From assembly GCA_038256975.1 (NCBI GenBank), contig JBBSJU010000004.1, positions 1-60,171 on the forward strand: 60,171 nt of DNA. Reading direction: 5' to 3'. This document shows positions 2,599 to 43,376 of the stretch, piece by piece. The stretch comes from Minisyncoccia bacterium (GTDB lineage Bacteria; Patescibacteriota; Minisyncoccia; Phycocordibacterales; UBA5272). How positions within the stretch are numbered: the first letter of the stretch is position 1; every line of letters begins with the position of its first letter. The notes under the pieces were generated by a model. That model did no database searches. It was not told the origin of the DNA and was given only the letters and a program-made list of their open reading frames with translations. Position numbers and translations under genes: made by a program.

Positions 2599-2604
2599 TA
2601 TACT
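2599..2604 (+). promoter_or_regulatory. -10 box (TATACT) 7 nt upstream of ATG 2612; leaderless-type promoter
   Basis: tgcTATACTgtaattaATG, with no Shine-Dalgarno sequence possible in the 7-nt gap. Confidence 0.55.
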
Positions 2605-2611
2605 GTAATTA

Positions 2612-27330: not shown

Positions 27331-27447
27331 CCGAATTTTAGTTTTTTGTAAGCGAAGCGTTCCATACCAAAAAAGCTGAAATTCGCGTCGCGGATGTCCC
27401 CTAGGGACACAAGACGTGAGTTTGGGTATTATTAGTTGTGATTAAGC

Positions 27448-27471
27448 TTGAGATAGGTTCGGAGTCCGAAG
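27448..27471 (+). repeat. 24-nt element TTGAGATAGGTTCGGAGTCCGAAG (copy 1) containing the 13-nt palindrome TTCGGAnTCCGAA
   Basis: Matches 33263-33286 at 23 of 24 positions. Ends 27 nt before ATG 27499. Confidence 0.8.
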
Positions 27472-27498
27472 AGTATCCAAAAGTTGTATAATCTTGAT

Positions 27499-28335: not shown

Positions 28336-28337
28336 TC

Positions 28338-28853: not shown

Positions 28854-28922
28854 GTTAGTATTTCAAAACTTTAAGAACTGGGCTTAAAGGTCATTAATCT
28901 AACCCAAACAAAAAGATGTTTT

Positions 28923-29708: not shown

Positions 29709-29757
29709 AATAAAGATGTTAATATAAAGACAATGATTAGAGATAACTCTTTTTTAA

Positions 29758-30729: not shown

Positions 30730-30940
30730 CATCCATCCAGAAAATTCGATATACTACAATGGAGCTTTTGTATTACAGGAGTTACAAAAACAGACTAACC
30801 AAAATTTAATCGATTTATATCAAAATGTAAAACAAAAACAAAAAATGAGTTTTCCAGTTTTTGTTTTATGCTTAGATTGGCTGTTCTTATTGAGTGTTGC
30901 TGAACTAAAAGAAGATGGCAACGTAAAGTTATGTTCTTAA
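30713..30940 (+). CDS. ABC-3C middle component-like small protein (75 aa)
   Basis: MLLPDNIHPENSIYYNGAFVLQELQ...FPVFVLCLDWLFLLSVAEL. ATG 30713 overlaps the upstream gene by 17 nt, and the stop overlaps the ATPase start by 10 nt. Confidence 0.55.
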   Translation: MLLPDNIHPENSIYYNGAFVLQELQKQTNQNLIDLYQNVKQKQKMSFPVFVLCLDWLFLLSVAELKEDGNVKLCS

Positions 30941-32652: not shown

Positions 32653-32684
32653 TTTTTAACTGAGCTCATGGTTTCTGTCTGCAT

Positions 32685-32705
32685 AGTTCCAACGTCGTCC
32701 CATGC
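32685..32705 (+). repeat. 21-nt post-stop junction motif, copy a
   Basis: AGTTCCAACGTCGTCCCATGC, starting 32 nt after the ATPase stop. Consensus AGTTYCRAYNTCGTCCCAGAC. Confidence 0.7.
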
Positions 32706-32790
32706 TCTCAGCACTTGATTTTCACATCATTTATCAAAGTAAAACTTATACCTGTCAGGTAATCTCGAATTTCTGTATAATTATCCTAAT

Positions 32791-33219
32791 ATGTTGCCAG
32801 ACGAAAACTCAAAAAAATTTGTTGCGGTATTAAACAAGAAAGTCGAAACCGGAAAGTTAATGAACGCTCTGGGTCACATGAGTGCAGGACTTTCGGGTGG
32901 CTTCGGAAAGGGAGAAGAAATGAATTTTTTGGAATATCTTGATAAAGATGGAGGGATTCATCCAAAGATATCTCATTTTCCTTTTATAATATTAAAAGCA
33001 GAAAATTCCAATCAGATCAGAAAAATTAGAAATGAGGCTATGCAGAGAAATATACTATTCACTGATTTTACAAGCACGATGACTGTCGGGACCTCCGCAG
33101 ATCAATTAGAGAGAACAAAGAGTACGCTTGAAGCTGAATTGGAATATTGGGGGATATGCATGTTTGGAAATGCAGCAGAGCTTAAGGAATTTACAGGAAA
33201 GTTATCACTGTTCAATTAA
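32791..33219 (+). CDS. DUF2000-like protein (PTH2-like fold family)
   Basis: KFVAVLNKKVETGKLMNALGHMSAGL...PFIILKA pattern at ~140 aa. TATAAT at 32776-32781. Confidence 0.5.
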   Translation: MLPDENSKKFVAVLNKKVETGKLMNALGHMSAGLSGGFGKGEEMNFLEYLDKDGGIHPKISHFPFIILKAENSNQIRKIRNEAMQRNILFTDFTSTMTVGTSADQLERTKSTLEAELEYWGICMFGNAAELKEFTGKLSLFN

Positions 33220-33230
33220 TATAATAGTTT

Positions 33231-33251
33231 GGTTCGAATAACGTCCCAGAC
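33231..33251 (+). repeat. 21-nt post-stop junction motif, copy b
   Basis: GGTTCGAATAACGTCCCAGAC, starting 11 nt after the DUF2000 stop. Confidence 0.7.
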
Positions 33252-33262
33252 GGCCAGCCAGT

Positions 33263-33286
33263 TTGAGATAGGTTCGGATTCCGAAG
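33263..33286 (+). repeat. 24-nt element TTGAGATAGGTTCGGATTCCGAAG (copy 2)
   Basis: Matches 27448-27471 at 23 of 24 positions. Ends 19 nt before ATG 33306. Its half-site GATTCCGAAG recurs at 35322-35331. Confidence 0.8.
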
Positions 33287-33305
33287 TGTAATATAATTCA
33301 TAAAC

Positions 33306-35339
33306 ATGGATCCGCTAGATTTGGAAAGGAAAGATTTTGGAAAAGAATTTGAAGAAGAAGTTAAGTTTTTTCTTGAGGAAAAACTCAGATTTTCTGATGT
33401 GAGAGGAGGTCAAGATTTTCACATTGCTCCTCCAGGACAAAAAAATCAAATAGATGCTTGTGGTCGTTACAACGATATTCTTTTTGTGTTTGAGTGTAAA
33501 GCTTCAGGAAGAAGAACTAAGAAAAATTTACGTCAAGATATTTTAGCAACAAAAGAAAGGGCAAGAATGGTACTACGATCATATAAATACATCCCCGAAT
33601 ATGCTAATTGTAATTATGTAAAATTTGTTTTTATAACTAAAAAAATTGAAATACCTGATACTGAAAAAGATTTACTTAATAAGGATACTGAGCCACATTT
33701 TTGGTATGCAGATGAAAATATGTTGGAGTATTATAGTGATCTTCATGAAAAGGTTGGAGAGTATGCAACGTATAATTTTTTAGCAGATTTTGGAATTAGA
33801 CCTTCAGAAGATGAGGTGCTCAAGGTGGCTGCGGTTAAAACTAAAATTGGTAACTATGATACATATAGTTTTTATGCTCCACCTAAGCAATTATTAAAAT
33901 TTTCTTATGTTGCAAGACGCAGATCTTTAAACGAGAATTTTTATCAAAGGATGTTAGATAAAAATAGAATAAAAAACATTCAAAATTTTATAGACGCAGG
34001 TGGAATATTCCCGACAAATGTCATAATTTCTTTAAAACATGGAGACAAGGAATTTGTAAAGAATCATGATCTGACTGGTTCTGAGGTTGGTGTACTAACT
34101 ATTAAAAATAGTTACAGTGCTTGTTGGATCATTGATGGTCAACATAGACTATACTCCCATGCTAAATCAAAATCAGAAAATCTTATTCCTTGTATTGCTT
34201 TTGACAATATTGGTATTGAGGATGAAAGACGTTTTTTCCTTGAAATAAACAGGGAGCAGAAACCAATTCAACCAGATTTAATTTGGGACCTTGAGGGATT
34301 ATCAAGTCCTGATTCATTTAAGGGAATCATTTCAAATGTTGTTCGAACTCTTAATAATCGAGAACCTTTTCTCGATAAAGTTTATATTCCAGTAAAAGGA
34401 TCACGCACAAACAAACTTGTTAATATGGCAGCTTTCTGTAACGGTATTGTTAATTCACAAATCACTAAACAAAACCCTCCTAGTGTTATAGGAATGCAAA
34501 ACCCCTTATTTACAGAGGTCACAAGAACAATAACTAACCGAACAGCTTCTTCTTTAGAGAGATTTTTCCTTAGTTTGAAAGAGGTTTTAAATGAGGATCA
34601 AATAGATTTTGTGTTTGGGAATGCTGGTATCCCTATAATGTTGTATATTTTTGAGCCAATTTTGGCTCATATTGGTCGAATACCTGCTTTTGGTGATTTA
34701 AGCCCGTATACAAAATTAATAGGAGAATTTTTTAACCAAAATTACTCCACATATGATGATCTTCGAAAACTAAGATCAGAAACTAATAGTGAAGGTGCTC
34801 GTAAGTCAATTGCTAGACAAATAGGCTTGTATATTCGCAAGGGAGTAAGAGATCGTCTGTTTTGGCCAAAAATGGAACAAGATGAATTTGTGTCAGAAAT
34901 TATTTCGATGGAAAGAGGTATCGCCTCCGTTATTGCTGAAAAGTTAAGCGAAGTTACAGTTGGTTGGGAAAAACAAAGAGTACCACAACCAATATATGCT
35001 GTAGCAAAGAAAAGGATGGACCAAGACGGGACTGTCTTCCATGAAAACTTTTCTCTTGGAGACGAAATACAGATTATTACAAGGGATGACAACTGGAAAG
35101 AAGTTTTTCAAGATTTTTTTATAACAAAGACAGGATTTAAGGATCAAAGCGAATTAAAGTTAGCATTCAGATATTTAGCTGACGTTCGTAATCCTACTTC
35201 ACACGGTAAATCAGTTATTACAGATAAAGATGTTTTAGTACAAGCTGAAATTTATCTAGAAAAATTTAGAAAAATGATACCTATTATAGATGATATTGAC
35301 CAAGAAGTAGGTCTAAATAATGATTCCGAAGAGCATTAA
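33306..35339 (+). CDS. Three-domain fusion: PD-(D/E)xK REase-like N-domain, DGQHR (DndB-like ParB/Srx fold) domain, and C-terminal HEPN (Swt1-like)
   Basis: IDACG...LFVFECKAS (D50, E63, K65; 33453-33500). WIIDGQHRLYSH with DGQHR encoded at 34134-34148. DVRNPTSHG, with the Rx4H HEPN motif at 35187-35204. Confidence 0.75.
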   Translation: MDPLDLERKDFGKEFEEEVKFFLEEKLRFSDVRGGQDFHIAPPGQKNQIDACGRYNDILFVFECKASGRRTKKNLRQDILATKERARMVLRSYKYIPEYANCNYVKFVFITKKIEIPDTEKDLLNKDTEPHFWYADENMLEYYSDLHEKVGEYATYNFLADFGIRPSEDEVLKVAAVKTKIGNYDTYSFYAPPKQLLKFSYVARRRSLNENFYQRMLDKNRIKNIQNFIDAGGIFPTNVIISLKHGDKEFVKNHDLTGSEVGVLTIKNSYSACWIIDGQHRLYSHAKSKSENLIPCIAFDNIGIEDERRFFLEINREQKPIQPDLIWDLEGLSSPDSFKGIISNVVRTLNNREPFLDKVYIPVKGSRTNKLVNMAAFCNGIVNSQITKQNPPSVIGMQNPLFTEVTRTITNRTASSLERFFLSLKEVLNEDQIDFVFGNAGIPIMLYIFEPILAHIGRIPAFGDLSPYTKLIGEFFNQNYSTYDDLRKLRSETNSEGARKSIARQIGLYIRKGVRDRLFWPKMEQDEFVSEIISMERGIASVIAEKLSEVTVGWEKQRVPQPIYAVAKKRMDQDGTVFHENFSLGDEIQIITRDDNWKEVFQDFFITKTGFKDQSELKLAFRYLADVRNPTSHGKSVITDKDVLVQAEIYLEKFRKMIPIIDDIDQEVGLNNDSEEH

Positions 35340-35467
35340 AATGCAGAATAAAAAGAACCAGAAAATCCTTGTGGGGTAAGGTATGGAAATGTCCGAATCC
35401 GATGAGGTCAGCAATTTGAGATTCGTACTAGACCAGGGCATGGCGCGAGCTGGTATACTGATCGTAT

Positions 35468-36097
35468 ATGATTAAGGCCCTTGTATTTGATATTGGTGGA
35501 GTTTTGTTCTTGCCACTAAATAATCAGAGAGAAAAATCGCTCCTAGATTCATTCGGTGAGACAATGTTTCTGTTGGATAGTTATATGGAGACAAACCTTG
35601 AAATTAAGGAGTTACTTCGCGAGGTTTATAAGCAGTCGGCACAAGGAATTATTACAAAACAAGAAACTTTACAGAAGATGTCAAATATTCTTGGCATTGG
35701 AGAAGGGGAAGTAGAGAGTATATTTCGGAAGATCTATTCTGAAAAAACAGTAGAAAATATTGAATTGTACGAAAAAATAATTCTCCTGAAAATGAAAAAT
35801 TACAAGATAGGTATTCTTTCCACGCAGTTTCATTTATCTAAAGATGTTCTGGTGCCAAAGAAATATTACGACAACTTTGATGCTTTAGGAATTTCTTGCG
35901 ACGATAAACTTAAAAAGCCAGACGAAAAAGCCTTTACAACCCTGCTTCAAAGTTTGAATGTTTTGACAGAAGACGTATTGTTTGTTGATGATCAGCAGAA
36001 AAACATAGATGCGGCTACCAGTCTTGGAATGCAAGCCGTCCTATTTAAAAATAATAAACAGCTATTTCAGACACTAGAAGAATTAGGGGTCAAATAA
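35468..36097 (+). CDS. HAD-superfamily hydrolase
   Basis: LVFDIGGVLF (motif I-like), GILSTQ, KKPDEKAF, VLFVDDQQKNIDAATSLGMQAV. TGgTATACT at 35451-35459 lies 8 nt before the ATG. Confidence 0.75.
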   Translation: MIKALVFDIGGVLFLPLNNQREKSLLDSFGETMFLLDSYMETNLEIKELLREVYKQSAQGIITKQETLQKMSNILGIGEGEVESIFRKIYSEKTVENIELYEKIILLKMKNYKIGILSTQFHLSKDVLVPKKYYDNFDALGISCDDKLKKPDEKAFTTLLQSLNVLTEDVLFVDDQQKNIDAATSLGMQAVLFKNNKQLFQTLEELGVK

Positions 36098-36117
36098 GTT
36101 CCAACTTCGCTCCAAAC
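36097..36117 (+). repeat. 21-nt post-stop junction motif, copy c
   Basis: AGTTCCAACTTCGCTCCAAAC; its first base is the last base of the HAD stop codon. Confidence 0.7.
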
Positions 36118-36167
36118 AACTAGCACGGTGACTAAATAAAACTTAGTTTTTCTTGTATTATGTCTAC

Positions 36168-36737
36168 ATGAATGAGCCAGCAGACCTAGTTTACATTGAT
36201 GACTATGATTTATTAGGTAGTAATTTTTATTGGCATAAGTATGAAGCTAAAGGATTAACGAAAGAAGATATACTCTCTGTTGGATTAACGAGCGATCGGG
36301 TACAAATACATAAAGATATCTTACAACCGCTACTTACAGTGAATGCTGAGTTTCAAAGGAAAGGATACCGGTTATACATTAAAGAGGGATATCGTTCGAA
36401 AGCTCTTTACGAAATGATTTACAAACGGCGTGTTACAAAGTTTGGTAAGGAAGAAACCGATCGTCTTTTAAATATGGAAGGGATGCCTCACGCGGAAGGA
36501 AAATCAGTGGATGTGGCCTTATGGAGTCTACGAGAGAATAAGGAAATTTATCTGCGCCAAGGAGAAGACGGGGTAGATGCGCTTTTTGTTGATTTCTATA
36601 AAGGAAAAGAGGATGAGCAAAGCAAAAGATATCAAGAGCTACAAGAATGGATTATTAATATAATGCAAGAACAAGGATTTCGACTGGGTACTAAACGGGA
36701 ATACTTTCATTTCGATTATAAGCCGAATGAGGTTTGA
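36168..36737 (+). CDS. Peptidase M15 family, VanX-like D-Ala-D-Ala dipeptidase (paralogue 1)
   Basis: YIKEGYRSK, MPHAEGKSVDV (H and D zinc ligands) and EYFHFDY (distal His). TATTAT at 36156-36161 lies 6 nt before ATG 36168. Confidence 0.7.
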   Translation: MNEPADLVYIDDYDLLGSNFYWHKYEAKGLTKEDILSVGLTSDRVQIHKDILQPLLTVNAEFQRKGYRLYIKEGYRSKALYEMIYKRRVTKFGKEETDRLLNMEGMPHAEGKSVDVALWSLRENKEIYLRQGEDGVDALFVDFYKGKEDEQSKRYQELQEWIINIMQEQGFRLGTKREYFHFDYKPNEV

Positions 36738-36749
36738 TATACTTTGAGT

Positions 36750-37736
36750 ATGAAAATTTCTGTGGAAAAACTTAAAGTGAAAGTGCTGGAGACTTTTACT
36801 AAAAGCGGATTTACTAATACAGACGCTGAAAACGTTTGGAATTATTTACTTTGGGCTGAAATGTCGGGAATAAAAACACAAGGCATTATAAAAATGATAG
36901 GAACGGAGCCTCTACAAAATATTAAACCAAAAAGTGAAGTCAGAATTGAGAGAGATAAAAAACTTTCACAACTGATTGATGGTGGGGCAAACCCAGCGCC
37001 AATTGTAAGTCAGCAGGCAAGTGATGTTGCAATACGAAAAGCAAAAGAACATGGATTCGGCATTGTTGGAGTTCGTAATACTTTTTCAAGTAATGGAGCG
37101 CAAGCGTACTATGCTGAAAAAATTGCAAAAGAAAATTTAATAGGCATTGTTTGTAGTAGATCACCAGCTTCTACTACTGGTTTTGATAGTATTGATCCTT
37201 TATTTGGTACGAACCCAATAGCTTTTGGATTTCCAACTGATAACGAGCCTTTTGTGTTTGATATGGCTACTTCGGCAATGACTTTCTACGGGCTAGTATT
37301 AGCGAAATCTCAAGGGGTAAAAATACCAAAAAACATGGCAATTGATAAAGATGGGGTATTAACTACTGATCCAGATGCAGCCATGGATGGGGCATTATTG
37401 CCTTTTGATAGAGGATATAAAGGCGCAGGTCTTGGAATGGTTGTTGAGATGCTTGCTGGTCCCTTAGTTAATTCCGCATGGGTTGACAATAAGACCTTTA
37501 AGGAAGAATGGGGGTCACTCTTTATAGCCATCGATCCAGATTTATTAATTGATACAAGTCTTTTTAAGAAAAATGCTTCTGATTTAATATCGAAAGTTAA
37601 GCAGTCTAGAAAGAGACCTGGAGTAGAGGAAATACGCTTACCAGGAGAGATGGCCCTTGAGAGACGAATTGAAGTAAAATCTTCTGGTCTCATTGATGTT
37701 GAAGAGTCAGTTTTGAGAGAGCTAGGGTATCTTTAA
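36750..37736 (+). CDS. Ldh_2 family (malate/L-lactate/sulfolactate-type) 2-hydroxyacid dehydrogenase
   Basis: HGFGIVGVRNTFSSNGAQAYYAE...GTNPIAFGFP...PFDRGYKGAGLGMVVEMLAG. Starts 12 nt after the M15 stop. Confidence 0.75.
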   Translation: MKISVEKLKVKVLETFTKSGFTNTDAENVWNYLLWAEMSGIKTQGIIKMIGTEPLQNIKPKSEVRIERDKKLSQLIDGGANPAPIVSQQASDVAIRKAKEHGFGIVGVRNTFSSNGAQAYYAEKIAKENLIGIVCSRSPASTTGFDSIDPLFGTNPIAFGFPTDNEPFVFDMATSAMTFYGLVLAKSQGVKIPKNMAIDKDGVLTTDPDAAMDGALLPFDRGYKGAGLGMVVEMLAGPLVNSAWVDNKTFKEEWGSLFIAIDPDLLIDTSLFKKNASDLISKVKQSRKRPGVEEIRLPGEMALERRIEVKSSGLIDVEESVLRELGYL

Positions 37737-37759
37737 AATTTTGAAATACCAGAGAGAGA

Positions 37760-37780
37760 AGTTTCAACATCGTGCCAAAC
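37760..37780 (+). repeat. 21-nt post-stop junction motif, copy d
   Basis: AGTTTCAACATCGTGCCAAAC, starting 23 nt after the Ldh_2 stop. Confidence 0.7.
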
Positions 37781-37858
37781 CATCAACCAACTCGTGCTAG
37801 GTTATCGCGGTCGAGACGCGTCGCTTAGCAAAGTTATAGAAAGCGATATAATATAAAA

Positions 37859-38584
37859 ATGCAACGAGATAAAAAATTCTTTTACGAACAATATGAGCAG
37901 CTAAATTGGAAGAATCAAGAAGAAACAAAAATTAATTCTCAAGTAAATGATTATATTAGTGATGAGGTAATCATGAGACATGAAAATGAAAGTATATCTC
38001 TTTTTGATATTGGTTTTGGAGTAGGATTCTTTATAACAAATTTATCAGAGAAGCTCAAAACTAAATACAAATATATTTGTATAGAAGGATGTGAGCCAGC
38101 TAAAGTAAGTTACGAACATTTCAGTAAAAAAGATATATCCGGTGTAGAGTTAAAAATCTCCAATCAGTCTTTTCTAGATATTTCCAGTGATAAGACTTTT
38201 GATTTTATAACTGCGATTTATGTCTTCCCACATTTCACTTTTGATGATTTGGAATCTGTTATAAAAAAGATTAATTCGATGTTAAATATTAGAGGAAAGT
38301 TCATCATGGTAATCACAAGTGAAAAATCATATAAAGAAGGTTTAGTAAAAGGTAAAGATTTATTTAATCTTGTGGAAGATAACAAAGTTATTTACCAAGG
38401 AAAAGAGTATCAAGAATATCTACACAAATCTCTTATTCCTGGAATAGGAGATGTTTATGATTTCAATAGAGATGAGGCACTCTACTTGGAAATGTTTAAA
38501 AATAATGGCTTTTCTGTAAATGGGCAAAAGGAACTTAATGATGGGTATTTTTTGAATAAGATTCTGGTGTTTGAGAAGAAATAA
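37859..38584 (+). CDS. Class I SAM-dependent methyltransferase
   Basis: LFDIGFGVGFF (motif I), FDFITAIYVFPHF, LNIRGKFIMVI. TATAAT at 37847-37852 lies 6 nt before the ATG. Confidence 0.7.
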   Translation: MQRDKKFFYEQYEQLNWKNQEETKINSQVNDYISDEVIMRHENESISLFDIGFGVGFFITNLSEKLKTKYKYICIEGCEPAKVSYEHFSKKDISGVELKISNQSFLDISSDKTFDFITAIYVFPHFTFDDLESVIKKINSMLNIRGKFIMVITSEKSYKEGLVKGKDLFNLVEDNKVIYQGKEYQEYLHKSLIPGIGDVYDFNRDEALYLEMFKNNGFSVNGQKELNDGYFLNKILVFEKK

Positions 38585-38585
38585 A

Positions 38586-38606
38586 AGTTTCAACCTCGTC
38601 CCAGAC
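38586..38606 (+). repeat. 21-nt post-stop junction motif, copy e (equals the consensus)
   Basis: AGTTTCAACCTCGTCCCAGAC, starting 1 nt after the methyltransferase stop. Confidence 0.75.
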
Positions 38607-38616
38607 GTGTGGTAAG

Positions 38617-38625
38617 TGCTATAAT
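38617..38625 (+). promoter_or_regulatory. Extended -10 promoter TGcTATAAT, 7 nt before ATG 38633
   Basis: gTGcTATAATcatctttATG. Confidence 0.6.
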
Positions 38626-38632
38626 CATCTTT

Positions 38633-38944
38633 ATGAATGAACTCATACACTACATCGGAGAAAAGTGGCTCTGCACTCCCGCTCGCTATCCAGAAATGGA
38701 AGGCATGAACGAAGATGAAAAATTTCGTTTCGTACTACGACATTCAGCTCTACACTTTGCTAAAACAGCTGGAAAGATAGCCAGTGTAAGTGAAGATGTG
38801 GATCATGGAGACCAGATCAATATTGAAGATTTAAAAACTAACACAGCCAAGTCTCTTATTAACACCCTGTATCTTGCTGGCCAATTGAAGATGACTGAAG
38901 AAGAACTCGCAAAGCTTGTTAAGCAGATTGTTGATTCACATTAA
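38633..38944 (+). CDS. Hypothetical all-alpha protein (103 aa), possibly MazG-like
   Basis: ATG 38633 preferred over the track GTG at 38609. FVLRHSALHFAKTAGKIASVSEDVDHG is only weakly MazG-like. Confidence 0.4.
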   Translation: MNELIHYIGEKWLCTPARYPEMEGMNEDEKFRFVLRHSALHFAKTAGKIASVSEDVDHGDQINIEDLKTNTAKSLINTLYLAGQLKMTEEELAKLVKQIVDSH

Positions 38945-38947
38945 GAA

Positions 38948-38968
38948 TATTTCGATTTCGTCCCAGAA
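38948..38968 (+). repeat. 21-nt post-stop junction motif, copy f
   Basis: TATTTCGATTTCGTCCCAGAA, starting 3 nt after the stop at 38942-38944. Confidence 0.7.
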
Positions 38969-39026
38969 CACTTCCATATGCCCTATATGATTCTAAAAAT
39001 AGAGAACTTTGCTAACATAAATTCAT

Positions 39027-39446
39027 ATGGCAGAACTTAAAACAAAAGTAACAACGGCAAGCGTAACAGATTTTATCGGAGAGATTAGTGGCACAGAAAA
39101 ACGCAGAGATAGTTTAACGCTACTTAAGATATTCAAAAGTGTAACTGGAGAAAAACCAAAGATGTGGGGATCGTCAATTATAGGGTTTGGGAAATATCAT
39201 TACTCATCGGAACGCAGCGCACAAAAGGGAGACTGGCCACTAACAGGATTTTCTCCCCGTAAGCAAAATCTTACTCTGTACATCATGCCTGGGTTTAAAA
39301 ACTATGGAACCTTATTGAAAGACCTTGGAAAACACAAAACAAGTGTTGGTTGTTTGTATGTAAAAAGATTATCAGACGTCAATGAAAAAGTACTCATTAA
39401 ACTTATTGAGAAATCTTTTGTCGATACGAAGAAAAAATACAGTTAA
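39027..39446 (+). CDS. DUF1801 (YdhG-like) protein
   Basis: VTDFIGEI...RRDSLTLLKIFKSVTGEKPKMWGSSIIGFGKYHYSSERSAQKGDWPLTGFSPRKQNLTLYI. Confidence 0.7.
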   Translation: MAELKTKVTTASVTDFIGEISGTEKRRDSLTLLKIFKSVTGEKPKMWGSSIIGFGKYHYSSERSAQKGDWPLTGFSPRKQNLTLYIMPGFKNYGTLLKDLGKHKTSVGCLYVKRLSDVNEKVLIKLIEKSFVDTKKKYS

Positions 39447-39552
39447 AAAAGAAAGAAGCGAAACTAACTCTGGTCGGGTACTGATTATTTTCGGGCACGA
39501 GGGTAATACGAAAGTTCAAACTTCATGACTTTTGGGAACTAGTTCACATACC

Positions 39553-39607
39553 TTTTTACAAAATGAAAACACGCCTACGAAAAGCATGTTTTCAGTAAGC
39601 GTGTGTA
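39553..39607 (-). repeat. 55-nt exact repeat (copy 1), likely the intrinsic terminator/3' UTR of the minus-strand small membrane-protein gene
   Basis: tttttacaaaatgaaaacacgcctacgaaaagcatgttttcagtaagcgtgtgta is identical to 40675-40729. On the minus strand ACACGC...GCGTGT is followed by TTTTCATTTTGTAAAAA. Confidence 0.75.
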
Positions 39608-39612
39608 TTAGT

Positions 39613-39840
39613 TCAGTAGCGGAGTACGGTCGGGACGTTGTTCTGTCGCTGAGTGCGGAGCTTCTTGATGTAGGCACAGAACTCGCACCCAAGCGCAACG
39701 TAGCCGGCGATGGTGGCGGAGATGATCATTCCACGAGCGATGTCCTTTTCGCCTTGGATGGCGAAGTAAAGGCCAATCGCAAATGTGACCACGAAAATGA
39801 CGAAACAAGCGACCGTGCTTCTGTCAAAGCCGTTATTCAT
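39613..39840 (-). CDS. Small two-TM membrane protein with basic C-terminal tail (paralogue 1)
   Basis: MNNGFDRSTVACFVIFVVTFAIGLYFAI..GMIISATIAGYVALGCEFCAYIKKLRTQRQ. SD AAGGAG lies 8 nt before the ATG. GC-richer than flanks. Confidence 0.65.
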   Translation of the reverse strand: MNNGFDRSTVACFVIFVVTFAIGLYFAIQGEKDIARGMIISATIAGYVALGCEFCAYIKKLRTQRQNNVPTVLRY

Positions 39841-39920
39841 GACGAACTCTCCTTTGGTTTAGAATGAACTAGTTAGTCGACCACTAGTCGACGCACAGCC
39901 CTTCAGTGACTGTTACCAAC

Positions 39921-39948
39921 AGTATAGCATATTATAGTATATTGTCAA
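39921..39948 (-). promoter_or_regulatory. Sigma-70-type promoter for the minus-strand small membrane-protein gene
   Basis: Minus strand reads TTGACA (39948-39943), 16 nt, TGcTATACT (-10 at 39926-21). Confidence 0.55.
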
Positions 39949-39976
39949 TATCGATATCTAGCTGATTTTTTAAAAT

Positions 39977-39997
39977 AGTTTCGACCTCGTTCCAGAT
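39977..39997 (+). repeat. 21-nt junction motif, copy g
   Basis: AGTTTCGACCTCGTTCCAGAT, 64 nt upstream of ATG 40062. Confidence 0.7.
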
Positions 39998-40061
39998 TTG
40001 TAGCTATTAACGGCTAGTCTAGTGGTCAGATAAAATTCATTTTTTCTTGTATCATGTCTAT

Positions 40062-40640
40062 ATGAATGAGCCAACAGATCTAGTTTATATCGATGACTAT
40101 AATTTATTAGGTAGTAATTTTTATTGGCATAAATATGAAACTCACGGACTCACGAAAGAAGATATTTTAGGTGCTGGTTTGGTAGACGATAGAGTTCAGG
40201 TGAGCAAACAGATTATTGAGCCTCTTATTGCGGCAGACAATGAATTACAGAAAAAAGGATGGCGGCTTTATATTAAAGAAGGGTATCGTTCAAAAGATCT
40301 TTACAAGGTAGTCTATGAGAAAAGAATTGCTAAATATGGAAAAGAAGTCACAGATACTATATTAAACATAGATACGATGCCACATTCTGAAGGTTTGTCT
40401 GTCGATATTTCAATTTGGGACACTAAGACAGATAAAGAGATATATATGCGTAAAGGGAGTGATGGTGTGCCAGCTTTCTTTACCCATTTCTATCGTGATA
40501 AAAGTGATGAGGAATCAAAAAGTTATCAAGAACTTCAAGATTATATAGCCAAATTAATGATGAAATATGGTTTCCGTTTTGCGTCGAAAAAGGAATACTT
40601 TCATTTTGATTATCGCCCTAGCTTACCTCCCAATTATTAG
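40062..40640 (+). CDS. Peptidase M15 family, VanX-like D-Ala-D-Ala dipeptidase (paralogue 2)
   Basis: About 60% aa identity by eye to 36168..36737. YIKEGYRSK, MPHSEGLSVDI, EYFHFDY. The promoter and first ~100 nt are nearly identical to paralogue 1. Confidence 0.7.
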   Translation: MNEPTDLVYIDDYNLLGSNFYWHKYETHGLTKEDILGAGLVDDRVQVSKQIIEPLIAADNELQKKGWRLYIKEGYRSKDLYKVVYEKRIAKYGKEVTDTILNIDTMPHSEGLSVDISIWDTKTDKEIYMRKGSDGVPAFFTHFYRDKSDEESKSYQELQDYIAKLMMKYGFRFASKKEYFHFDYRPSLPPNY

Positions 40641-40674
40641 AAGCTCTGATCTTCCCTTTGATCCGCAACTCGCG

Positions 40675-40729
40675 TTTTTACAAAATGAAAACACGCCTAC
40701 GAAAAGCATGTTTTCAGTAAGCGTGTGTA
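40675..40729 (-). repeat. 55-nt exact repeat (copy 2), terminator/3' UTR of the second small membrane-protein gene
   Basis: Identical to 39553-39607. Confidence 0.75.
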
Positions 40730-40736
40730 GATGTGT

Positions 40737-40961
40737 TCAACGGAGAACAATCCACCTGTTCCGTCGCCGAATGCGTAGTCGTCTGAGGTAGGCCCTCACT
40801 TCGCACCAGATCCCGATGAAGCCGATAACCGCGGCAGCACCAATTGCTTTTCGGGCAATCTCGCCTTCACCTCCGATGGCGAACAGAATCCCGGCTACGA
40901 GCATGATTACGGAGATAATAAAAGAAATCAACGCACCTCTGGTATATCCGGTACCGGTCAT
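40737..40961 (-). CDS. Small two-TM membrane protein with Arg-rich C-terminal tail (paralogue 2)
   Basis: MTGTGYTRGALISFIISVIMLVAGILFAI..AIGAAAVIGFIGIWCEVRAYLRRLRIRRRNR. SD GAGGGG lies 6 nt before the ATG. Confidence 0.65.
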   Translation of the reverse strand: MTGTGYTRGALISFIISVIMLVAGILFAIGGEGEIARKAIGAAAVIGFIGIWCEVRAYLRRLRIRRRNRWIVLR

Positions 40962-41211
40962 GGTAGACCCCTCTATGCTTTATTGTGTGAGAAAAACTCT
41001 CCTAAAATAGCCCAGGAGTGAACTTTTTCTAAAGACCAGAATCAATTAATTCGTACCATGGATTATAAATGATGTCTATTCTAGTTTGAGCGGTCGTTTG
41101 TGGTGGTAAATAAGAATAAGTACATAGTGGCTTGGCCTAACAAGTATCCGCGAGGTAAGTAACTCGTAAATTTCTACTATAATTGCAATATATTGTGTAT
41201 GATTTATCACA

Positions 41212-41967
41212 ATGGCTGAAGAAAATAATTACGATCAGTTTGCTGCTGTTCGCCAAGAAGAATTGCGTAACGGGACCAAATTTTCTCATACGTATGTAGA
41301 GAAACCGATGATGGCAAACCTTTTACCAAACCTTAGTCACAAAAAAGTATTAATGCTTGGTTGTGGAACAGGAGAAGAAAGTGTACTACTTAAAAAACAC
41401 GAGGCAAAAGAATTGGTAGGAATGGATCAGTCCCCGGAGTCTATTCGTCTGGCAAATGAAACTTATCCGGAACATACATTTGTTCTTGGAGATATGCATG
41501 TATTAAATTTTCCAGATAACAGTTTTGATTTTGTGTATAGTAGCCTAGCTATTCACTACTCAGAACAGCCACAGAAAGTATATCAAGAGGTCTATAGAAT
41601 TCTAAAATCAGGAGGGCAGTTTCTTTTTTCGGTTGGGCATCCAGTACGATGGGCATCCGAGCAACAAGAAATTGGCGGCGCTACCTCAAGGATTATTGGA
41701 TTCTCAGAAAATAAAAAGAACCCAAGGCTATATGGAGGTTACCTAACCTTCAAGAAATACAATCATCATTTTCTGGGAGATGAGACATTGAGCTTTTGGG
41801 TTGCTCCACCAAGCCTACACTTTAAGCTTTTAAAAGAAGCTGGGTTTGCTATTAATGACTTCGTTGAGTCACGTGTCATTGATGCGTGTGAGAGGGTGGA
41901 TGATTATTACTATAAAAGATATTCTGAGTTTCCTCAGTTTGTAGCCTTTTTAGTTACTAAGAATTAG
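41212..41967 (+). CDS. Class I SAM-dependent methyltransferase
   Basis: VLMLGCGTGEESVLL (motif I), FDFVYSSLAIHY, LKSGGQFLFSV. Confidence 0.8.
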   Translation: MAEENNYDQFAAVRQEELRNGTKFSHTYVEKPMMANLLPNLSHKKVLMLGCGTGEESVLLKKHEAKELVGMDQSPESIRLANETYPEHTFVLGDMHVLNFPDNSFDFVYSSLAIHYSEQPQKVYQEVYRILKSGGQFLFSVGHPVRWASEQQEIGGATSRIIGFSENKKNPRLYGGYLTFKKYNHHFLGDETLSFWVAPPSLHFKLLKEAGFAINDFVESRVIDACERVDDYYYKRYSEFPQFVAFLVTKN

Positions 41968-42075
41968 AAAAGTTCTAGTTCCATCCAGATCTGCAACTCG
42001 AAAAGTTAAACTTGAAAAACGTTTATTCTGCGTGGAGCAGAAAGAATAAAATTATTCTTATTTAGAAATTCCTCC

Positions 42076-42104
42076 TTGACTCTTTTTGGTATTTACCTTA
42101 TCTT
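42076..42104 (+). promoter_or_regulatory. Sigma-70-type promoter TTGACT-17 nt-TATCTT
   Basis: TTGACT at 42076-42081 and TATCTT at 42099-42104. The track's TTG start at 42076 is the -35 box. Confidence 0.55.
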
Positions 42105-42138
42105 GCTAACAGCACAACTGACCCAAAGGAGGCAAACT

Positions 42139-42501
42139 GTGCCAATGATTGAGTTTCGCTACGACCCACAAAAACTGGATGAGGGAAAAGCGCGATTTAT
42201 TGCTTCCTGTCTCGAAAGAGAATTGCGCGAGGCTATCAGGAAGATACGTCCAAACCTTTCTCGTCAATACGGCGTAACTACGGAAGGTGATCCTTTCCGC
42301 ATCGCGTTTAATCAACCTGAGTTGAGGATACTCATCTTTTACCATGAAGAATGGAAATTTACGGCACGTGAACTGGAACGTCTTCTAAAAAAGATGAAAG
42401 CCAGCGTTGGATCACTCCTCAAATTCTCCAAGGTCGAAGGCGTGTTGGTCAAGATACGCTTTTATGCTCGTGTTGGACACGCGAGTACCTCTATTCCGTA
42501 A
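42139..42501 (+). CDS. Hypothetical protein (120 aa), SD-led and GC-richer
   Basis: GGAGG at 42128-42132 lies 6 nt before GTG 42139 (ATG 42145 is the alternative). No family recognised. Confidence 0.5.
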   Translation: MPMIEFRYDPQKLDEGKARFIASCLERELREAIRKIRPNLSRQYGVTTEGDPFRIAFNQPELRILIFYHEEWKFTARELERLLKKMKASVGSLLKFSKVEGVLVKIRFYARVGHASTSIP

Positions 42502-42523
42502 TGAGTCAAGAATGACCGAAATC

Positions 42524-42560
42524 CACCTCCTAGCTTCAGCGAAGAGGTGGTTGTTATTTA
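42524..42560 (+). terminator. Rho-independent terminator
   Basis: CCACCTC (42524-42530) pairs with GAGGTGG (42545-42551), followed by ttgttattt. Confidence 0.6.
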
Positions 42561-42578
42561 ATGTTTTGCCTAGACCTG

Positions 42579-42607
42579 TTGACATACTTAGCAGGCCGTG
42601 CTATTAT
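42579..42607 (+). promoter_or_regulatory. Near-consensus sigma-70 promoter TTGACA-17 nt-TGcTATTAT
   Basis: TTGACA at 42579-42584, a 17-nt spacer, and TATTAT at 42602-42607 preceded by TGc. Confidence 0.65.
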
Positions 42608-42667
42608 TAACCGAGGTCAGGATCCAGATCCTGAATGTTCAGCACAAACCAAAATTCGGAGGTCATC

Positions 42668-42811
42668 ATGACGGCATGGCAGACTCTCGGTCAATACGAG
42701 TATGAATACGATGAACGTGGACAGTACACCGGCTGGTACCGATACATCGGAGGCAGGCTCGCGAATGGCCATTGGCCCCAGTGGAACAACAAAACTGGTG
42801 CCGCGCGGTGA
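42668..42811 (+). CDS. Unlisted small ORF (47 aa), W/Y/G-rich
   Basis: GGAGG lies 5 nt before ATG 42668. Product is MTAWQTLGQYEYEYDERGQYTGWYRYIGGRLANGHWPQWNNKTGAAR with TGA at 42809-42811. Sits downstream of the 42579 promoter. Confidence 0.45.
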   Translation: MTAWQTLGQYEYEYDERGQYTGWYRYIGGRLANGHWPQWNNKTGAAR

Positions 42812-42945
42812 AATATTCGCAACAAATCCAACACCCCATCTAGTAGCAAAGGCGAACGGTGGGGTTTCGACTTAATCTAATAACCTCGTTCTAGATATCT
42901 AGCTGGTATACTTAATATATTAGAATACGTAATTAAATAATCACT

Positions 42946-43311
42946 ATGGCTAAATATGTAGATGGATTTGTGCTCACAATTAAAAAAACTAAGCGTGCTG
43001 CGTATAAGAAGATGGCACAAGAAGGAAAGTCCGCGTGGATGAAGTTTGGCGCACTTTCGTATATGGAGTGTCGTGCTGATGATGTAACACCAGCTCATGT
43101 TGCTTTTACGTTTCCAAAGATGGCAAAAGCAAAAGAAGATGAAGAAGTGTGGTTCTCATTTATTGCTTTTAGTTCAAAGAAACATCGTAACGAAGTGAAT
43201 AAGAAAGTAATGGAATTCTTCGACAAGAAATATGCAGGCAAAAACCAGGATATGCCATTTGATATGAAGCGTTTCGCGTATGGGGGATTTACTGTTGAAG
43301 TAGAAGGGTAG
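42946..43311 (+). CDS. DUF1428-family protein
   Basis: MAKYVDGFVLTIKKTKRAAYKKMAQEGKSAWMKFGALSYMECRADDV...FAYGGF. Confidence 0.7.
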   Translation: MAKYVDGFVLTIKKTKRAAYKKMAQEGKSAWMKFGALSYMECRADDVTPAHVAFTFPKMAKAKEDEEVWFSFIAFSSKKHRNEVNKKVMEFFDKKYAGKNQDMPFDMKRFAYGGFTVEVEG

Positions 43312-43376
43312 AAAAACTCATTGCCTAAACCCATTTAGCGATATAATAAAAGTATTAACAATTGATTAATTTATAT

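What the first reader, a model, noticed from the sequence alone, without database searches (positions are those of the whole stretch)
32685..43340. Recurring 21-nt motif just after stop codons delimits an array of single-gene cassettes (attC-like role, no integrase seen)
Seven ungapped copies align with consensus AGTTYCRAYNTCGTCCCAGAC. They lie at 32685 (AGTTCCAACGTCGTCCCATGC), 33231 (GGTTCGAATAACGTCCCAGAC), 36097 (AGTTCCAACTTCGCTCCAAAC), 37760 (AGTTTCAACATCGTGCCAAAC), 38586 (AGTTTCAACCTCGTCCCAGAC), 38948 (TATTTCGATTTCGTCCCAGAA) and 39977 (AGTTTCGACCTCGTTCCAGAT). Positions 3-4 (TT), 8 (A), 12-13 (CG) and 16-18 (CCA) are invariant. Six of the seven start 0-32 nt after a plus-strand stop codon, while their distance to the next start codon varies from 46 to 105 nt. 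The motif is therefore tied to the 3' end of the upstream gene, not to the downstream promoter. Degenerate or interrupted copies follow other stops. One is at 41971-42000 (AGTTCTAGTTCCATCCAGATC) and a related one at 40641-40674. A copy at 42863-42899 is split by a 13-nt insert (GGTTTCGAC|ttaatctaataac|CTCGTTCTAGAT). A weak one lies at 43312-43340. Still weaker look-alikes follow stops at 2470, 18018, 20463 and 28857. The motif has no hairpin, so it is not an intrinsic terminator. The units it separates are functionally unrelated: HAD, M15+Ldh_2, methyltransferases, DUF1801, DUF1428 and others. This looks like a cassette array built by a common recombination or processing mechanism. The motif ends in CCAGA(C/T), like the CCAGATCG at the 5' end of tRNA-Gln and the duplicated copy upstream of it (27193-27205).
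Basis: seen in the sequence. Interest (0 to 1): 0.7.

Follow-up and report, generated by a model that had tools for sequence, protein, structure and literature searches.

The report
Recombinase-site repeats separating stacked gene cassettes
The short repeat that follows gene after gene here is the attachment-site footprint of a large serine recombinase that stacks small gene cassettes behind a tRNA-Gln gene in many ultra-small (CPR/Patescibacteria) bacteria. This integron-like gene-capture array does not appear in the literature I could search.

Summary
The seven copies are real: chance expects 0.01, all are on the + strand, and all are intergenic. An eighth, interrupted copy at 42863 is also real. 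The other weak look-alikes are at chance level.

The motif is not private to this genome. Scans of public genomes and metagenomes gave 175 Patescibacteria loci with 380 copies. The consensus is A.AAA RGTTCCAACATCGTCCCAGAC nGCCAGCAA. Ninety-six loci hold two or more copies, and none mixes strands. Spacing is about 520-560 nt, roughly one small, functionally unrelated gene per interval.

Arrays start one cassette length downstream of a tRNA-Gln gene, or of an orphan 23-nt tRNA-Gln 3' end. All 43 tRNA-Gln genes found lie upstream on the same strand.

Elements encoding a large serine recombinase (LSR) sit at the array head, abutting the tRNA, with the motif at their far end. At tRNA-Lys and tRNA-Trp the motif's tail switches to that tRNA's acceptor strand. 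The motif is therefore an LSR att site: a pseudo-T-arm plus a tRNA 3' end.

The window's own array has no recombinase gene nearby, and its copies have drifted from the consensus.

The parts
27260..27332 (+). tRNA-Gln (CTG), the anchor of the array. Its last 23 nt (27309-27331, GGTTCGAGTCCAAGCCTGGCAGC) are the attB-like 'T-site'.
   Evidence: ARAGORN and Rfam. T-site regex hit. In 43/43 other loci tRNA-Gln lies upstream of the array on the same strand.
27333..32684 (+). Low-GC (28-36%) island between the tRNA and the first motif. It holds GIY-YIG/DUF4357, DUF2726, DUF6602, SMEK/CTD10 and DUF2326-AAA genes (defence-type cargo) and no recombinase.
   Evidence: Pfam, composition. This is the same position that LSR-Rep elements occupy in L246, L258 and L260.
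27448..27471 (+). Second motif M2 (TTGAGATAGGTTCGGAGTCCGAAG), downstream of the tRNA.
   Evidence: It also occurs directly after the motif copy at 33231, after a motif in L096, and after a truncated tRNA-Gln in L234.
32685..32714 (+). Motif copy 1 (AGTTCCAACGTCGTCCCATGC + tctcagcac), 32 nt after the stop of the DUF2326 gene.
   Evidence: 19.8 bits.
32706..33230 (+). Cassette: DUF2000 gene (32791-33219) with its own TATAAT promoter close to the ATG.
33231..33286 (+). Motif copy 2 (GGTTCGAATAACGTCCCAGAC + ggccagccag). This is the most tRNA-like variant, with a canonical T-loop, and M2 follows it directly.
   Evidence: The same variant is in L069.
33287..36096 (+). Unit with a DndB/NERD-like gene (33306-35339) and a HAD hydrolase (35468-36097). 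No detectable motif lies between them.
   Evidence: Pfam. At 35413 only a chance-level look-alike is present.
36097..36126 (+). Motif copy 3. Its first base is the last base of the HAD stop codon.
36127..37759 (+). Unit with an M15/VanY peptidase (36153-36737) and an Ldh_2 dehydrogenase (36744-37736).
   Evidence: Pfam. Ldh_2 homologues (76-77% aa identity) sit in unrelated contexts without motifs in other genomes.
37760..37789 (+). Motif copy 4.
37790..38585 (+). Cassette: methyltransferase (37859-38584).
   Evidence: Pfam.
38586..38615 (+). Motif copy 5.
38616..38947 (+). Cassette: gene for a protein of about 102 aa of unknown family (ATG 38635 to 38944), with motifs on both sides.
38948..38977 (+). 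Motif copy 6, the weakest (6.6 bits).
38978..39976 (.). Unit with DUF1801 (39027-39446, +) and a 75-aa membrane-type ORF on the minus strand (39613-39840).
39977..40006 (+). Motif copy 7, followed by a paralogue of the M15 cassette (73% identity to 36115-36410).
40007..42862 (.). Decayed part of the array: M15 paralogue (40047-40640), 74-aa minus-strand ORF (40737-40961), methyltransferase (41212-41967), a 141-aa ORF and a small ORF. No motif here is above chance except the marginal 41971.
42863..42899 (+). Motif copy 8, interrupted by a 13-nt insert (GGTTTCGAC|ttaatctaataac|CTCGTTCTAGAT). The DUF1428 gene (42946-43311) follows.
   Evidence: (family D5).
46599..48919 (+). Conserved backbone downstream of the variable region: thioredoxin and a DsbD-MsrA-MsrB fusion.
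   Evidence: Pfam. The same genes flank arrays in L015, L056 and L096.

Best explanation
The motif (M) is an attachment site of a family of large serine recombinases (LSRs) that is widespread in Patescibacteria.

Anatomy of M:
- The 21-nt core RGTTCCAACATCGTCCCAGAC is the element-borne arm. It is a pseudo-T-arm, 5 nt longer than the real one.
- The tail nGCCAGCAA copies the acceptor 3' strand of the target tRNA.
- The chromosomal partner (the T-site) is the last 23 nt of tRNA-Gln, GGTTCGAnnCCnnGTCTSCCAGC.

How the array forms:
- Recombination between a circular element carrying M and the T-site inserts the element right after the tRNA.
- This regenerates a T-site at the head and leaves M at the distal end of the insert.
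- Repeated insertion at the head pushes older inserts outward. The result is T-site - [promoter-gene-M] - [promoter-gene-M] ... - backbone, with all M co-oriented with the tRNA.

Shown versus inferred:
- Shown: the architecture, the tRNA anchoring, the LSR adjacency, and the switch of the tail with the tRNA.
- Inferred: that the LSR acts in trans on LSR-less single-gene cassettes; that the crossover lies in the shared CCAGC region; and that T-site x M recombination can excise cassettes again.

In this window the array (eight copies, 32685-42899) lies 5.3 kb downstream of tRNA-Gln, and no recombinase domain was found in the ORFs scanned. Its copies have drifted from the consensus, so it looks like an old, probably inactive array.
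For: 1. Reality and spread.
- 7 copies against 0.01 expected.
- More than 119 genome loci and 120 metagenome loci hold the motif; the CPR-type ones are intergenic.
- In total: 175 CPR-type loci, 380 copies, 96 multi-copy loci, 0 with mixed strand, spacing median 523-560 nt.

2. Cassette behaviour.
- Cassette ORFs have a median of 150 aa and diverse families: NUDIX, HAD, SDR, glyoxalase, cupin, GNAT and others.
- The same cassette sits between two M in a Wolfebacteria and a Paceibacterota genome, with unrelated flanks.
- In two pairs at 91-93% identity, homology starts at or after M while the upstream DNA is unrelated.
- M orientation is kept where genes are reversed (L085 Na_Ca_ex, L100, L013, L029).

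3. tRNA anchoring.
- 46 of 64 tRNAs in all fetched loci are tRNA-Gln; 43/43 unique ones are upstream of the array on the same strand.
- Orphan 23-nt tRNA-Gln 3' ends occur on the M strand at array heads, for example fused to the alaS stop codon.
- The distance from T-site to first M has a median of 525 nt, one cassette period.
- T-site and M share the 3' end CCAGCAA. tRNA-Gln 3' ends resemble M more than other tRNAs do (16.7 against 11.5, p = 2e-6).
- L144 shows a clear example: tRNA-Gln, T-fragment, gene, M, gene, M, gene, M.

4. Enzyme.
- L246 has a 486-aa LSR (PDB YokA/TP901-1 hits; Pfam Resolvase + Recombinase + Zn_ribbon) 27 nt from the tRNA-Gln/T-site, then a Rep gene, then the array.
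- I fetched seven homologues without reference to M. In all five where the sequence allows a check, a tRNA or T-site abuts the LSR's 3' end: Gln in L258, L260 and L263; Lys in L262; Trp in L256. L259 has an orphan T-site, and the L261 contig ends at the LSR.
- M copies lie on the far side, on the tRNA strand: 8, 13, 8 (plus one weak opposite-strand hit), 5, 1 and 1 copies against 0.14-0.39 expected.
- In L263 the whole element is tRNA-Gln, LSR, M.

5. Hybrid-site test.
- At tRNA-Lys the core GTTCCAACATCGTCCCAT is followed by AGGGCGGACCA, the tRNA-Lys acceptor 3' strand.
- At tRNA-Trp the core TTTCGAATCTCGTCCCAC is followed by AGGGCCCGCC, against TAGGCCCGCA in the tRNA.

6. Half-site geometry.
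- From GGTTC to AGC, M is 28 nt and the T-site is 23 nt.
- This 5-nt difference matches what I recall of serine integrases: attP half-sites place the zinc-ribbon-domain motif about 5 bp further out than attB half-sites (Rutherford et al. 2013, from memory, not checked here).

7. Array-specific signatures.
- At the variable positions of M, copies differ by 2.4 positions within arrays and 4.2 between arrays (p = 2e-29).
- This fits tails being handed on from the resident site.
Against: - No LSR or any recombinase domain was found in the window ORFs scanned. None was enriched within about 3.5 kb of about 100 arrays. Action in trans is therefore required and untested.
- Canonical serine integrases recombine only attP with attB, and need a directionality factor to reverse. 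How LSR-less single-gene circles arise is unexplained. Whether the regenerated head site is a competent attB is also unexplained.
- 64 of 112 arrays with a visible head had no T-site by my regex.
- In tRNA-Gln loci the tail is the generic GCCAGCAA rather than the local tRNA's own acceptor strand. Agreement within a locus is only slightly better than between loci (7.5 against 7.0 of 13).
- One shared cassette (L007/L096) abuts its neighbour without any M.
- M has no obvious dyad symmetry.
- The LSR sample is small (8 contexts).
Confidence: 0.62

Rival explanations
1. Inert scars. Each M is only the attR scar of a complete LSR element that integrated at the tRNA and later lost its recombinase and replication genes by deletion, leaving cargo genes. 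Nothing mobilises the single-gene units.
For: M is demonstrably the distal junction of complete LSR elements. The window's copies are eroded, at 6.6-24.7 bits against 35-47 bits elsewhere. Motif-less fusions of cassettes occur.
Against: Hundreds of intervals are uniformly compact: about 520 nt holding a promoter, one ORF, and a stop codon abutting M. No LSR or Rep remnants lie between M copies. Repeated clean deletion to exactly one gene is implausible. The same cassette bounded by M occurs in different classes. M cores are conserved far better than neutral scars would be.
Confidence: 0.2
2. Portable homology. M is a conserved 30-35 nt patch that lets RecA swap or insert cassettes by homologous recombination after natural transformation, with no dedicated recombinase.
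For: Cassettes are flanked by near-identical direct repeats. M variants are homogenised within arrays. From my own knowledge, Patescibacteria are naturally competent.
Against: Thirty-five nt is at the lower limit for RecA. Homology use gives no reason for the core to be conserved across classes, for the strict tRNA-Gln anchoring, for LSR genes at array heads, or for the tail switching with the tRNA species.
Confidence: 0.07
3. Expression signal. M is a transcription or RNA signal: a factor-dependent terminator, an insulator, a regulator binding site, or a processing site at the 3' end of mRNAs.
For: M starts 0-32 nt after stop codons and lies upstream of the next promoter. It often sits next to hairpin terminators in other genomes.
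Against: M is confined to one 10-kb stretch of this 60-kb window and absent from about 50 other gene ends. Its orientation follows the array, not the gene, where genes are reversed. Its distance to the downstream -10 box or start codon is variable. It has no structure and no Rfam match. Its tail copies the tRNA acceptor strand.
Confidence: 0.05
4. True integron. M is an unusual attC recombined by an IntI-type tyrosine integrase encoded elsewhere.
For: The array architecture and cassette content resemble sedentary chromosomal integrons, including array-specific repeat signatures.
Against: There is no inverted-repeat (R''/L''-L'/R') organisation and no reverse-complement partner. Sequence, not structure, is conserved. 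Cassettes carry promoters. No Phage_integrase family was enriched near arrays. A serine recombinase is the linked enzyme.
Confidence: 0.03

Closest known systems
Staphylococcal/enterococcal cassette chromosomes (SCC, SCCmec composite islands; Ccr large serine recombinases integrating at the 3' end of rlmH)
   Same: A large serine recombinase inserts elements at the 3' end of one conserved gene. Elements pile up in tandem, separated by short direct repeats of the integration site. Many units lack their own recombinase and are thought to be moved in trans. (Own knowledge; SCC at rlmH is also stated in the abstract of bioRxiv 10.64898/2026.03.31.715619, and an enterococcal analogue is PMC6222049.)
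   Different: Here the target is a tRNA-Gln 3' end, not rlmH. The units are about 0.5 kb single genes with their own promoter, not 20-60 kb islands. There can be 8-13 units per array. The repeat is a 28-35 nt conserved site shared across classes of a phylum. The recombinase is usually not in the array.
Integrons (IntI tyrosine integrase, attI, attC-bounded gene cassettes; CALINs)
   Same: Head-to-tail arrays of small, functionally unrelated single-gene cassettes. The recombination site lies at the 3' end of each cassette, often overlapping the stop codon. Insertion is at a fixed head site, and all sites are co-oriented. Repeat signatures are array-specific, as in sedentary chromosomal integrons. 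Many arrays have no integrase nearby, like CALINs.
   Different: The site is conserved in sequence, with no hairpin. The head site is a tRNA 3' end. Cassettes have their own extended -10 promoters and leaderless starts. The linked enzyme is a serine recombinase, not a tyrosine recombinase.
tRNA-targeting integrative elements and prophages (serine integrases such as TP901-1/SPbeta-type, and the more usual tyrosine integrases), with tandem accretion at a tRNA
   Same: Integration is at the 3' end of a tRNA gene. The recombinase gene abuts the tRNA. A copy of the tRNA's 3' end is displaced to the distal junction. Serial insertions give co-oriented partial tRNA repeats.
   Different: The distal repeat is not a plain copy of the tRNA end. 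It is a conserved pseudo-T-arm plus the acceptor strand. The repeat recurs after every single gene, and most units carry no mobility gene.

Membership tests
Integron / attC | An IntI-type tyrosine integrase gene with attI and promoter Pc next to the array | tested here: not met
   No Phage_integrase or other recombinase Pfam hit in the window ORFs scanned (about 110 aa or more). Not among the families seen in 300 flanking proteins of about 100 arrays, but only the 25 commonest families are listed.
Integron / attC | The attC site is an imperfect inverted repeat (R''-L''...L'-R', 57-141 nt) that folds as single-stranded DNA; structure, not sequence, is conserved | tested here: not met
   No reverse-complement partner. 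Pairing probability over M is 0.46-0.64, like the flanks, in 150 copies. The sequence is nearly invariant over 21 nt.
Integron / attC | Co-oriented array of small, mostly single-gene cassettes, each ending in the site | tested here: met
   96 multi-copy loci, 0 mixed strand, spacing about 520-560 nt, stop codon a median 9 nt from M.
Large serine recombinase att site | A Resolvase + Recombinase + zinc-ribbon protein is encoded at one end of the integrated element, next to one junction | tested here: met
   L246, L258, L259, L260, L262, L263 and L256. Not met for the window itself, where no LSR was found.
Large serine recombinase att site | The junctions are hybrids: one arm comes from the element (P), the other from the target (B') | tested here: met
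   The same core is followed by the tRNA-Gln, tRNA-Lys or tRNA-Trp acceptor 3' strand, according to the tRNA at the other end of the element.
Large serine recombinase att site | The attP half-site is about 5 bp longer than the attB half-site (own knowledge of serine-integrase structures) | tested here: met
   From GGTTC to AGC is 28 nt in M and 23 nt in the T-site. This is one comparison only; the real crossover position is unknown.
Large serine recombinase att site | The enzyme catalyses attP x attB recombination at a central dinucleotide | not testable with these tools
   Needs an in vitro or in vivo recombination assay.
SCC-type cassette chromosome | Ccr-family LSR and integration at the 3' end of rlmH (orfX) | tested here: not met
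   The target is a tRNA 3' end. The relation of the CPR LSR to Ccr was not examined beyond shared Pfam domains.
tRNA-island direct repeat | The repeat is an exact copy of the local tRNA's 3' end | tested here: not met
   M aligns only weakly to tRNA-Gln (scores 10-24 against shuffle mean 12). The tail is generic GCCAGCAA. Plain 23-nt copies do exist, but only at array heads.
CRISPR array | Repeats of 21-48 nt separated by 25-70 nt spacers | tested here: not met
   Spacing is 173-4440 nt and contains genes.
Intrinsic terminator / REP-type palindrome | A GC-rich hairpin (plus a U-run) | tested here: not met
DNA uptake sequence | Hundreds of copies spread genome-wide on both strands | tested here: not met
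   Eight copies in 10 kb and none in the other 50 kb. One strand per array.
Known RNA family | A match to an Rfam covariance model | tested here: not met
   No hit on M at E up to 5 in the window, or up to 1 in 8 array loci.

The most novel reading that the evidence does not exclude
Patescibacteria possess a phylum-wide, integron-like gene-capture platform run by a large serine recombinase. The 3' end of tRNA-Gln acts as a self-regenerating head site. Recombinase-less single-gene cassettes, each carrying its own promoter and a 28-35 nt pseudo-tRNA att site, are inserted head-first, excised, and exchanged between classes. This would give these reduced genomes a dedicated accessory-gene shuttle.
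Probability: 0.4. Interest if true: 0.88.

Novelty: new variant of a known kind. Interest (0 to 1): 0.8.

Why it matters
CPR/Patescibacteria have tiny genomes, and it is poorly understood how they acquire and turn over accessory genes.

A conserved, sequence-defined att site would be a second, mechanistically independent solution to the problem integrons solve. It marks single-gene cassettes stacked behind tRNA-Gln, and a large serine recombinase is the linked enzyme.

It would give:
- a simple sequence tag (RGTTCCAACATCGTCCCAGAC) for finding the mobile gene pool of this phylum in metagenomes;
- a direct test bed for cassette exchange between CPR classes;
- a new family of serine integrases with defined, short att sites. 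These could be useful for genetics in organisms that are hard to manipulate, and for genome engineering.

For this window it explains the low-GC variable region between tRNA-Gln and the Trx-MsrAB backbone.

Tried and rejected
- **Promoter element.** The distance from M to the -10 box varies from 13 to about 90 nt. The promoters are extended -10 (TGnTAnAAT) types close to leaderless ATGs and need no -35 box.
- **ECF or sigma-54 promoter on either strand.** The spacing does not fit, judged by reading the sequence.
- **Small ORF.** The variable position is a first codon position.
- **Xer/dif-like site.** There are no inverted arms. GC skew rises across the whole window, so the window is not at the terminus.
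- **Phage origin.** The 9 IMG/VR hits and 42 of the public loci are one alphaproteobacterial phage-type gene that contains the 21-mer inside coding sequence. I removed them.
- **Recombinase next to arrays.** Pfam on 117 cassette proteins and 300 flank proteins showed only housekeeping neighbours: DnaX, RuvB, HI0933-like, ABC-F, MsrAB, AlaS.
- **Ldh_2 as a travelling cassette.** Its close homologues are in other contexts without M.
- **Exact look-up of a window protein.** Nothing was on record.
- **Direct derivation of M from the local tRNA.** The similarity is only weak.
- **Reverse transcriptase next to M in L234.** It is a single case, and no group II intron RNA was found.
- **Literature.** No paper held the motif sequence, or described CPR cassette arrays or CPR serine-recombinase arrays.
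- **Resemblance to the E. coli Ter core.** The reverse complement of M (ATGTTGGAACT) resembles ATGTTGTAACT. I recalled this from memory and did not pursue it.

Full report
**1. Observation**

The consensus with up to 3 mismatches finds exactly these seven, all on the + strand, against 0.01 expected. A PWM scan of both strands gives 22-33 bits for them and nothing above 12 bits elsewhere in the 60 kb. Six copies start 0-32 nt after a + strand stop codon.

The interrupted copy at 42863 is real. Copy 41971 is marginal. Copies 40641, 43312 and the four 'weak look-alikes' are at chance level.

The window contains one tRNA, tRNA-Gln(CTG) at 27260-27332. A low-GC region follows it. That region carries defence-type genes, then HAD, M15 (two copies), Ldh_2, methyltransferase, DUF1801 and DUF1428 genes. 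None of the window ORFs I scanned (those of about 110 aa or more) has a recombinase or transposase domain.

**2. The motif is a phylum-wide element**

I scanned one genome per species with AGTTYCRAYNTCGTYCCAGAY. The non-CPR hits lie inside coding sequence.

The real consensus is longer: A.AAA RGTTCCAACATCGTCCCAGAC nGCCAGCAA. A metagenome scan gave 120 more loci. Forty-two public loci are one unrelated phage-type gene, and I removed them.

Altogether there are 175 CPR-type loci, 380 copies, and 96 loci with two or more copies. None has copies on both strands. Spacing has a median of 523-560 nt.

Intervals hold mostly one ORF (median 150 aa) of unrelated families: NUDIX, HAD, SDR, M14, glyoxalase, cupin, GNAT and others. 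The upstream stop codon is a median 9 nt from the profile start. The downstream start is more variable. In 70% of co-oriented ORFs the downstream start is preceded by a TAnnnT box 4-12 nt upstream, which indicates leaderless transcripts.

Some cassette genes are reversed while the motif keeps its orientation: L085 (Na_Ca_ex), L100, L013 and L029. This argues against an RNA-level or promoter role.

The motif strand is the G-rich strand in 72 of 90 loci. There is no Rfam match and no structural signal.

**3. Cassette behaviour**

The same cupin-type cassette lies between two motifs in a Wolfebacteria and a Paceibacterota genome, and the DNA outside the motifs is unrelated.

Two pairs of related contigs (91% and 93% identity) share the DNA downstream of a motif but have unrelated DNA upstream. 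In both, identity is lowest in the motif's variable tail and jumps to 95-98% about 40-50 nt after the motif start.

Within arrays the variable positions are homogenised: 2.4 differences within arrays against 4.2 between (p = 2e-29). Exceptions exist. In L096 three cassettes abut without a detectable motif.

**4. Anchoring at tRNA-Gln**

Arrays sit in syntenic hotspots. The most frequent is dnaX - tRNA-Gln - array - HI0933-like/ABC-F/Trx-MsrAB. Another lies after alaS.

Of 64 tRNAs in all fetched loci, 46 are tRNA-Gln. All 43 unique ones lie upstream of the array on the motif strand.

Where no tRNA is present, an orphan 23-nt tRNA-Gln 3' end is often found on the same strand. This T-site reads GGTTCGAnnCCnnGTCTSCCAGC. 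In L029, L092 and L215 it is fused to the alaS stop codon.

Of 112 arrays with a visible head, 42 have a T-site within 2 kb: 26 as full tRNAs and 16 as orphans. The distance to the first motif has a median of 525 nt, one cassette period.

T-site and motif share the end CCAGCAA. tRNA-Gln 3' ends resemble the motif more than other tRNAs do (p = 2e-6). L144 shows the complete layout in 1.9 kb.

In the window, a second motif (M2) follows both the tRNA region (27448) and motif copy 2 (33263). In L234 it follows a truncated tRNA-Gln.

**5. The enzyme**

In L246 a 486-aa protein lies 27 nt from the tRNA-Gln/T-site, between the tRNA and a six-copy array. It matches solved large serine recombinases (YokA, TP901-1) and has Resolvase, Recombinase and Zn-ribbon domains. 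An HUH Rep gene accompanies it. The family has more than 2,600 members in the protein collection, and the few source-named hits are Parcubacteria/Paceibacterota.

I fetched seven homologues (47-69% identity) without reference to the motif. Every case that can be read has a tRNA or T-site abutting the recombinase's 3' end on the opposite strand:
- tRNA-Gln in L258, L260 and L263;
- tRNA-Lys in L262;
- tRNA-Trp in L256;
- an orphan T-site in L259.

Motif copies lie on the far side of the element, on the tRNA strand. L258 has 8 and L259 has 13. L260 has 8, plus one 3-mismatch hit on the opposite strand that I take for chance. L261 has 5, L262 has 1 exact copy, and L263 has 1. Chance expects 0.14-0.39. 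L263 is a minimal element: tRNA-Gln, recombinase, motif.

**6. Hybrid-site test**

If the motif is the distal junction of such an element, its tail should copy the target tRNA. It does.
- At tRNA-Lys the core GTTCCAACATCGTCCCAT is followed by AGGGCGGACCA. The tRNA ends ...TAGAGGGCGGACA.
- At tRNA-Trp the core TTTCGAATCTCGTCCCAC is followed by AGGGCCCGCC. The tRNA ends ...TAGTAGGCCCGCA.
- At tRNA-Gln the tail is GCCAGCAA.

The core is therefore an element-borne arm shared by the recombinase family, and the tail is the tRNA acceptor strand.

From GGTTC to AGC the motif is 5 nt longer than the T-site, 28 nt against 23. This fits what I recall of serine integrase attP and attB half-sites. I have not checked that here.

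**7. Model and its limits**

Recombination between a motif-bearing circle and the T-site would insert the circle after the tRNA. It would regenerate a T-site at the head and leave the motif at the insert's far end. Repetition gives the observed arrays.

Shown: the architecture, the anchoring, the recombinase linkage, and the hybrid nature of the site.

Inferred: trans action on recombinase-less cassettes, the crossover position, and reversibility.

Against the model:
- Most arrays, and this window, have no recombinase nearby.
- More than half of visible array heads had no recognisable T-site.
- Canonical serine integrases do not recombine like sites.

The main rival is that the motifs are inert scars of decayed elements. 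The uniform single-gene packing and the conservation of the core make that less likely.

**8. The window**

Its eight copies score 6.6-24.7 bits, against 35-47 bits in active-looking arrays. The first copy lies 5.3 kb from the tRNA, behind a defence island. Motifs fade out towards the Trx-MsrAB backbone, as they do in its nearest relative L056. I read it as an old, eroding array.

**9. Known systems and novelty**

The closest analogues are SCC-type cassette chromosomes, integrons, and tRNA-targeted integrative elements. SCC elements use a serine recombinase, form tandem units with direct repeats at one conserved gene, and include recombinase-less units. Integrons share the architecture and cassette content.

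Defining features of integrons (IntI, folded attC) were tested and not met. Features of serine-recombinase att sites were met wherever they could be tested.

No paper in the searchable library holds the motif, or describes such arrays in CPR.

I rate it a new variant of a known kind, with high interest.

Noticed in passing
window 27448-27471 and 33263-33286; L096 773; L234 8379 (-); L112 5894: A second conserved motif, TTGAGATAGGTTCGGAnTCCGAAG, contains a TTCGGAnTCCGAA palindrome. It follows either the tRNA-Gln region or a motif copy, just upstream of the next promoter. Its function is unknown; it may be part of the right arm of the att site, or a terminator/operator.
   Followed up: partly
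window 27193-27205: A short duplicate of the tRNA-Gln 5' end (TTGCCAGATCGCC) lies about 65 nt upstream of the tRNA, inside a GC-rich palindromic stretch (ctgcctgccatgtctgcgcacgcagggcaggcagg).
   Followed up: no
window 39553-39607 and 40675-40729: An exact 55-nt direct repeat (TTTTTACAAAATGAAAACACGCC...GCGTGTGTA) lies at the 3' ends of two paralogous minus-strand ORFs of about 75 aa (39613-39840, 40737-40961), each next to an M15 peptidase paralogue. It looks like a duplicated small-membrane-protein module with its terminator.
   Followed up: no
window 32760-32790, 33285-33305, 36140-36170, 37840-37858, 38618-38634 and many loci: Cassette genes have a TATAAT or TGnTAnAAT box only 5-10 nt upstream of the ATG, with no Shine-Dalgarno sequence. 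This indicates leaderless mRNAs from extended -10 promoters. 62 of 89 co-oriented cassette ORFs in other genomes show the same.
   Followed up: partly
L022, L062, L076, L120-L128 and about 30 metagenome loci: An alphaproteobacterial phage-type gene contains an exact AGTTCCAACGTCGTCCCAGAC inside its coding sequence (...ccatcgaa|motif|aggtg...). It is unrelated to the CPR element and contaminates any scan with the bare 21-mer.
   Followed up: partly
L234 8779-10068 (+), 270 nt from the motif at 8477-8506 (-): A 429-aa reverse transcriptase (best PDB matches: group II intron-like 4 and retron RTs) sits next to a motif that is followed by a truncated tRNA-Gln(CTG). No group II intron RNA was detected.
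   Followed up: partly
L246 8-120 and L144 (reverse strand) 1910-1795: A tRNA-Gln with an unusual T-arm (CTAGGATCGTACCCTAG) is followed after 16 nt by a second, canonical 23-nt tRNA-Gln 3' end. This suggests the functional 3' end was replaced by element DNA and the original displaced.
   Followed up: partly
L069 3712-3783 (-): A 72-nt match to bacterial 23S rRNA positions 2135-2206 (45 bits, E = 2e-10) lies just upstream of the first motif of a seven-copy array. It could be an L1-binding mimic or an rRNA fragment.
   Followed up: no
window 1817-4516: An SSB gene is followed by a 634-aa protein with weak TrwB/TraG-type coupling-protein and HerA-like ATPase matches. This hints at DNA-transfer machinery near a large glycosyltransferase cluster.
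   Followed up: no
L256 4744-7423; L261 6129-7549; window 27484-35339: The cargo next to the tRNA head is often defence-type: SRA-HNH and Mrr nucleases in L256, SMODS/SLATT in L261, and GIY-YIG, DUF2726, SMEK/ABC-3C, DUF2326 and DndB/NERD in the window. The tRNA-Gln head may therefore double as a defence island.
   Followed up: no
motif reverse complement: GATGTTGGAACTTTT resembles the E. coli Ter core (ATGTTGTAACTAA) at 10 of 11 positions. I recalled this from memory. It is probably coincidence.
   Followed up: no
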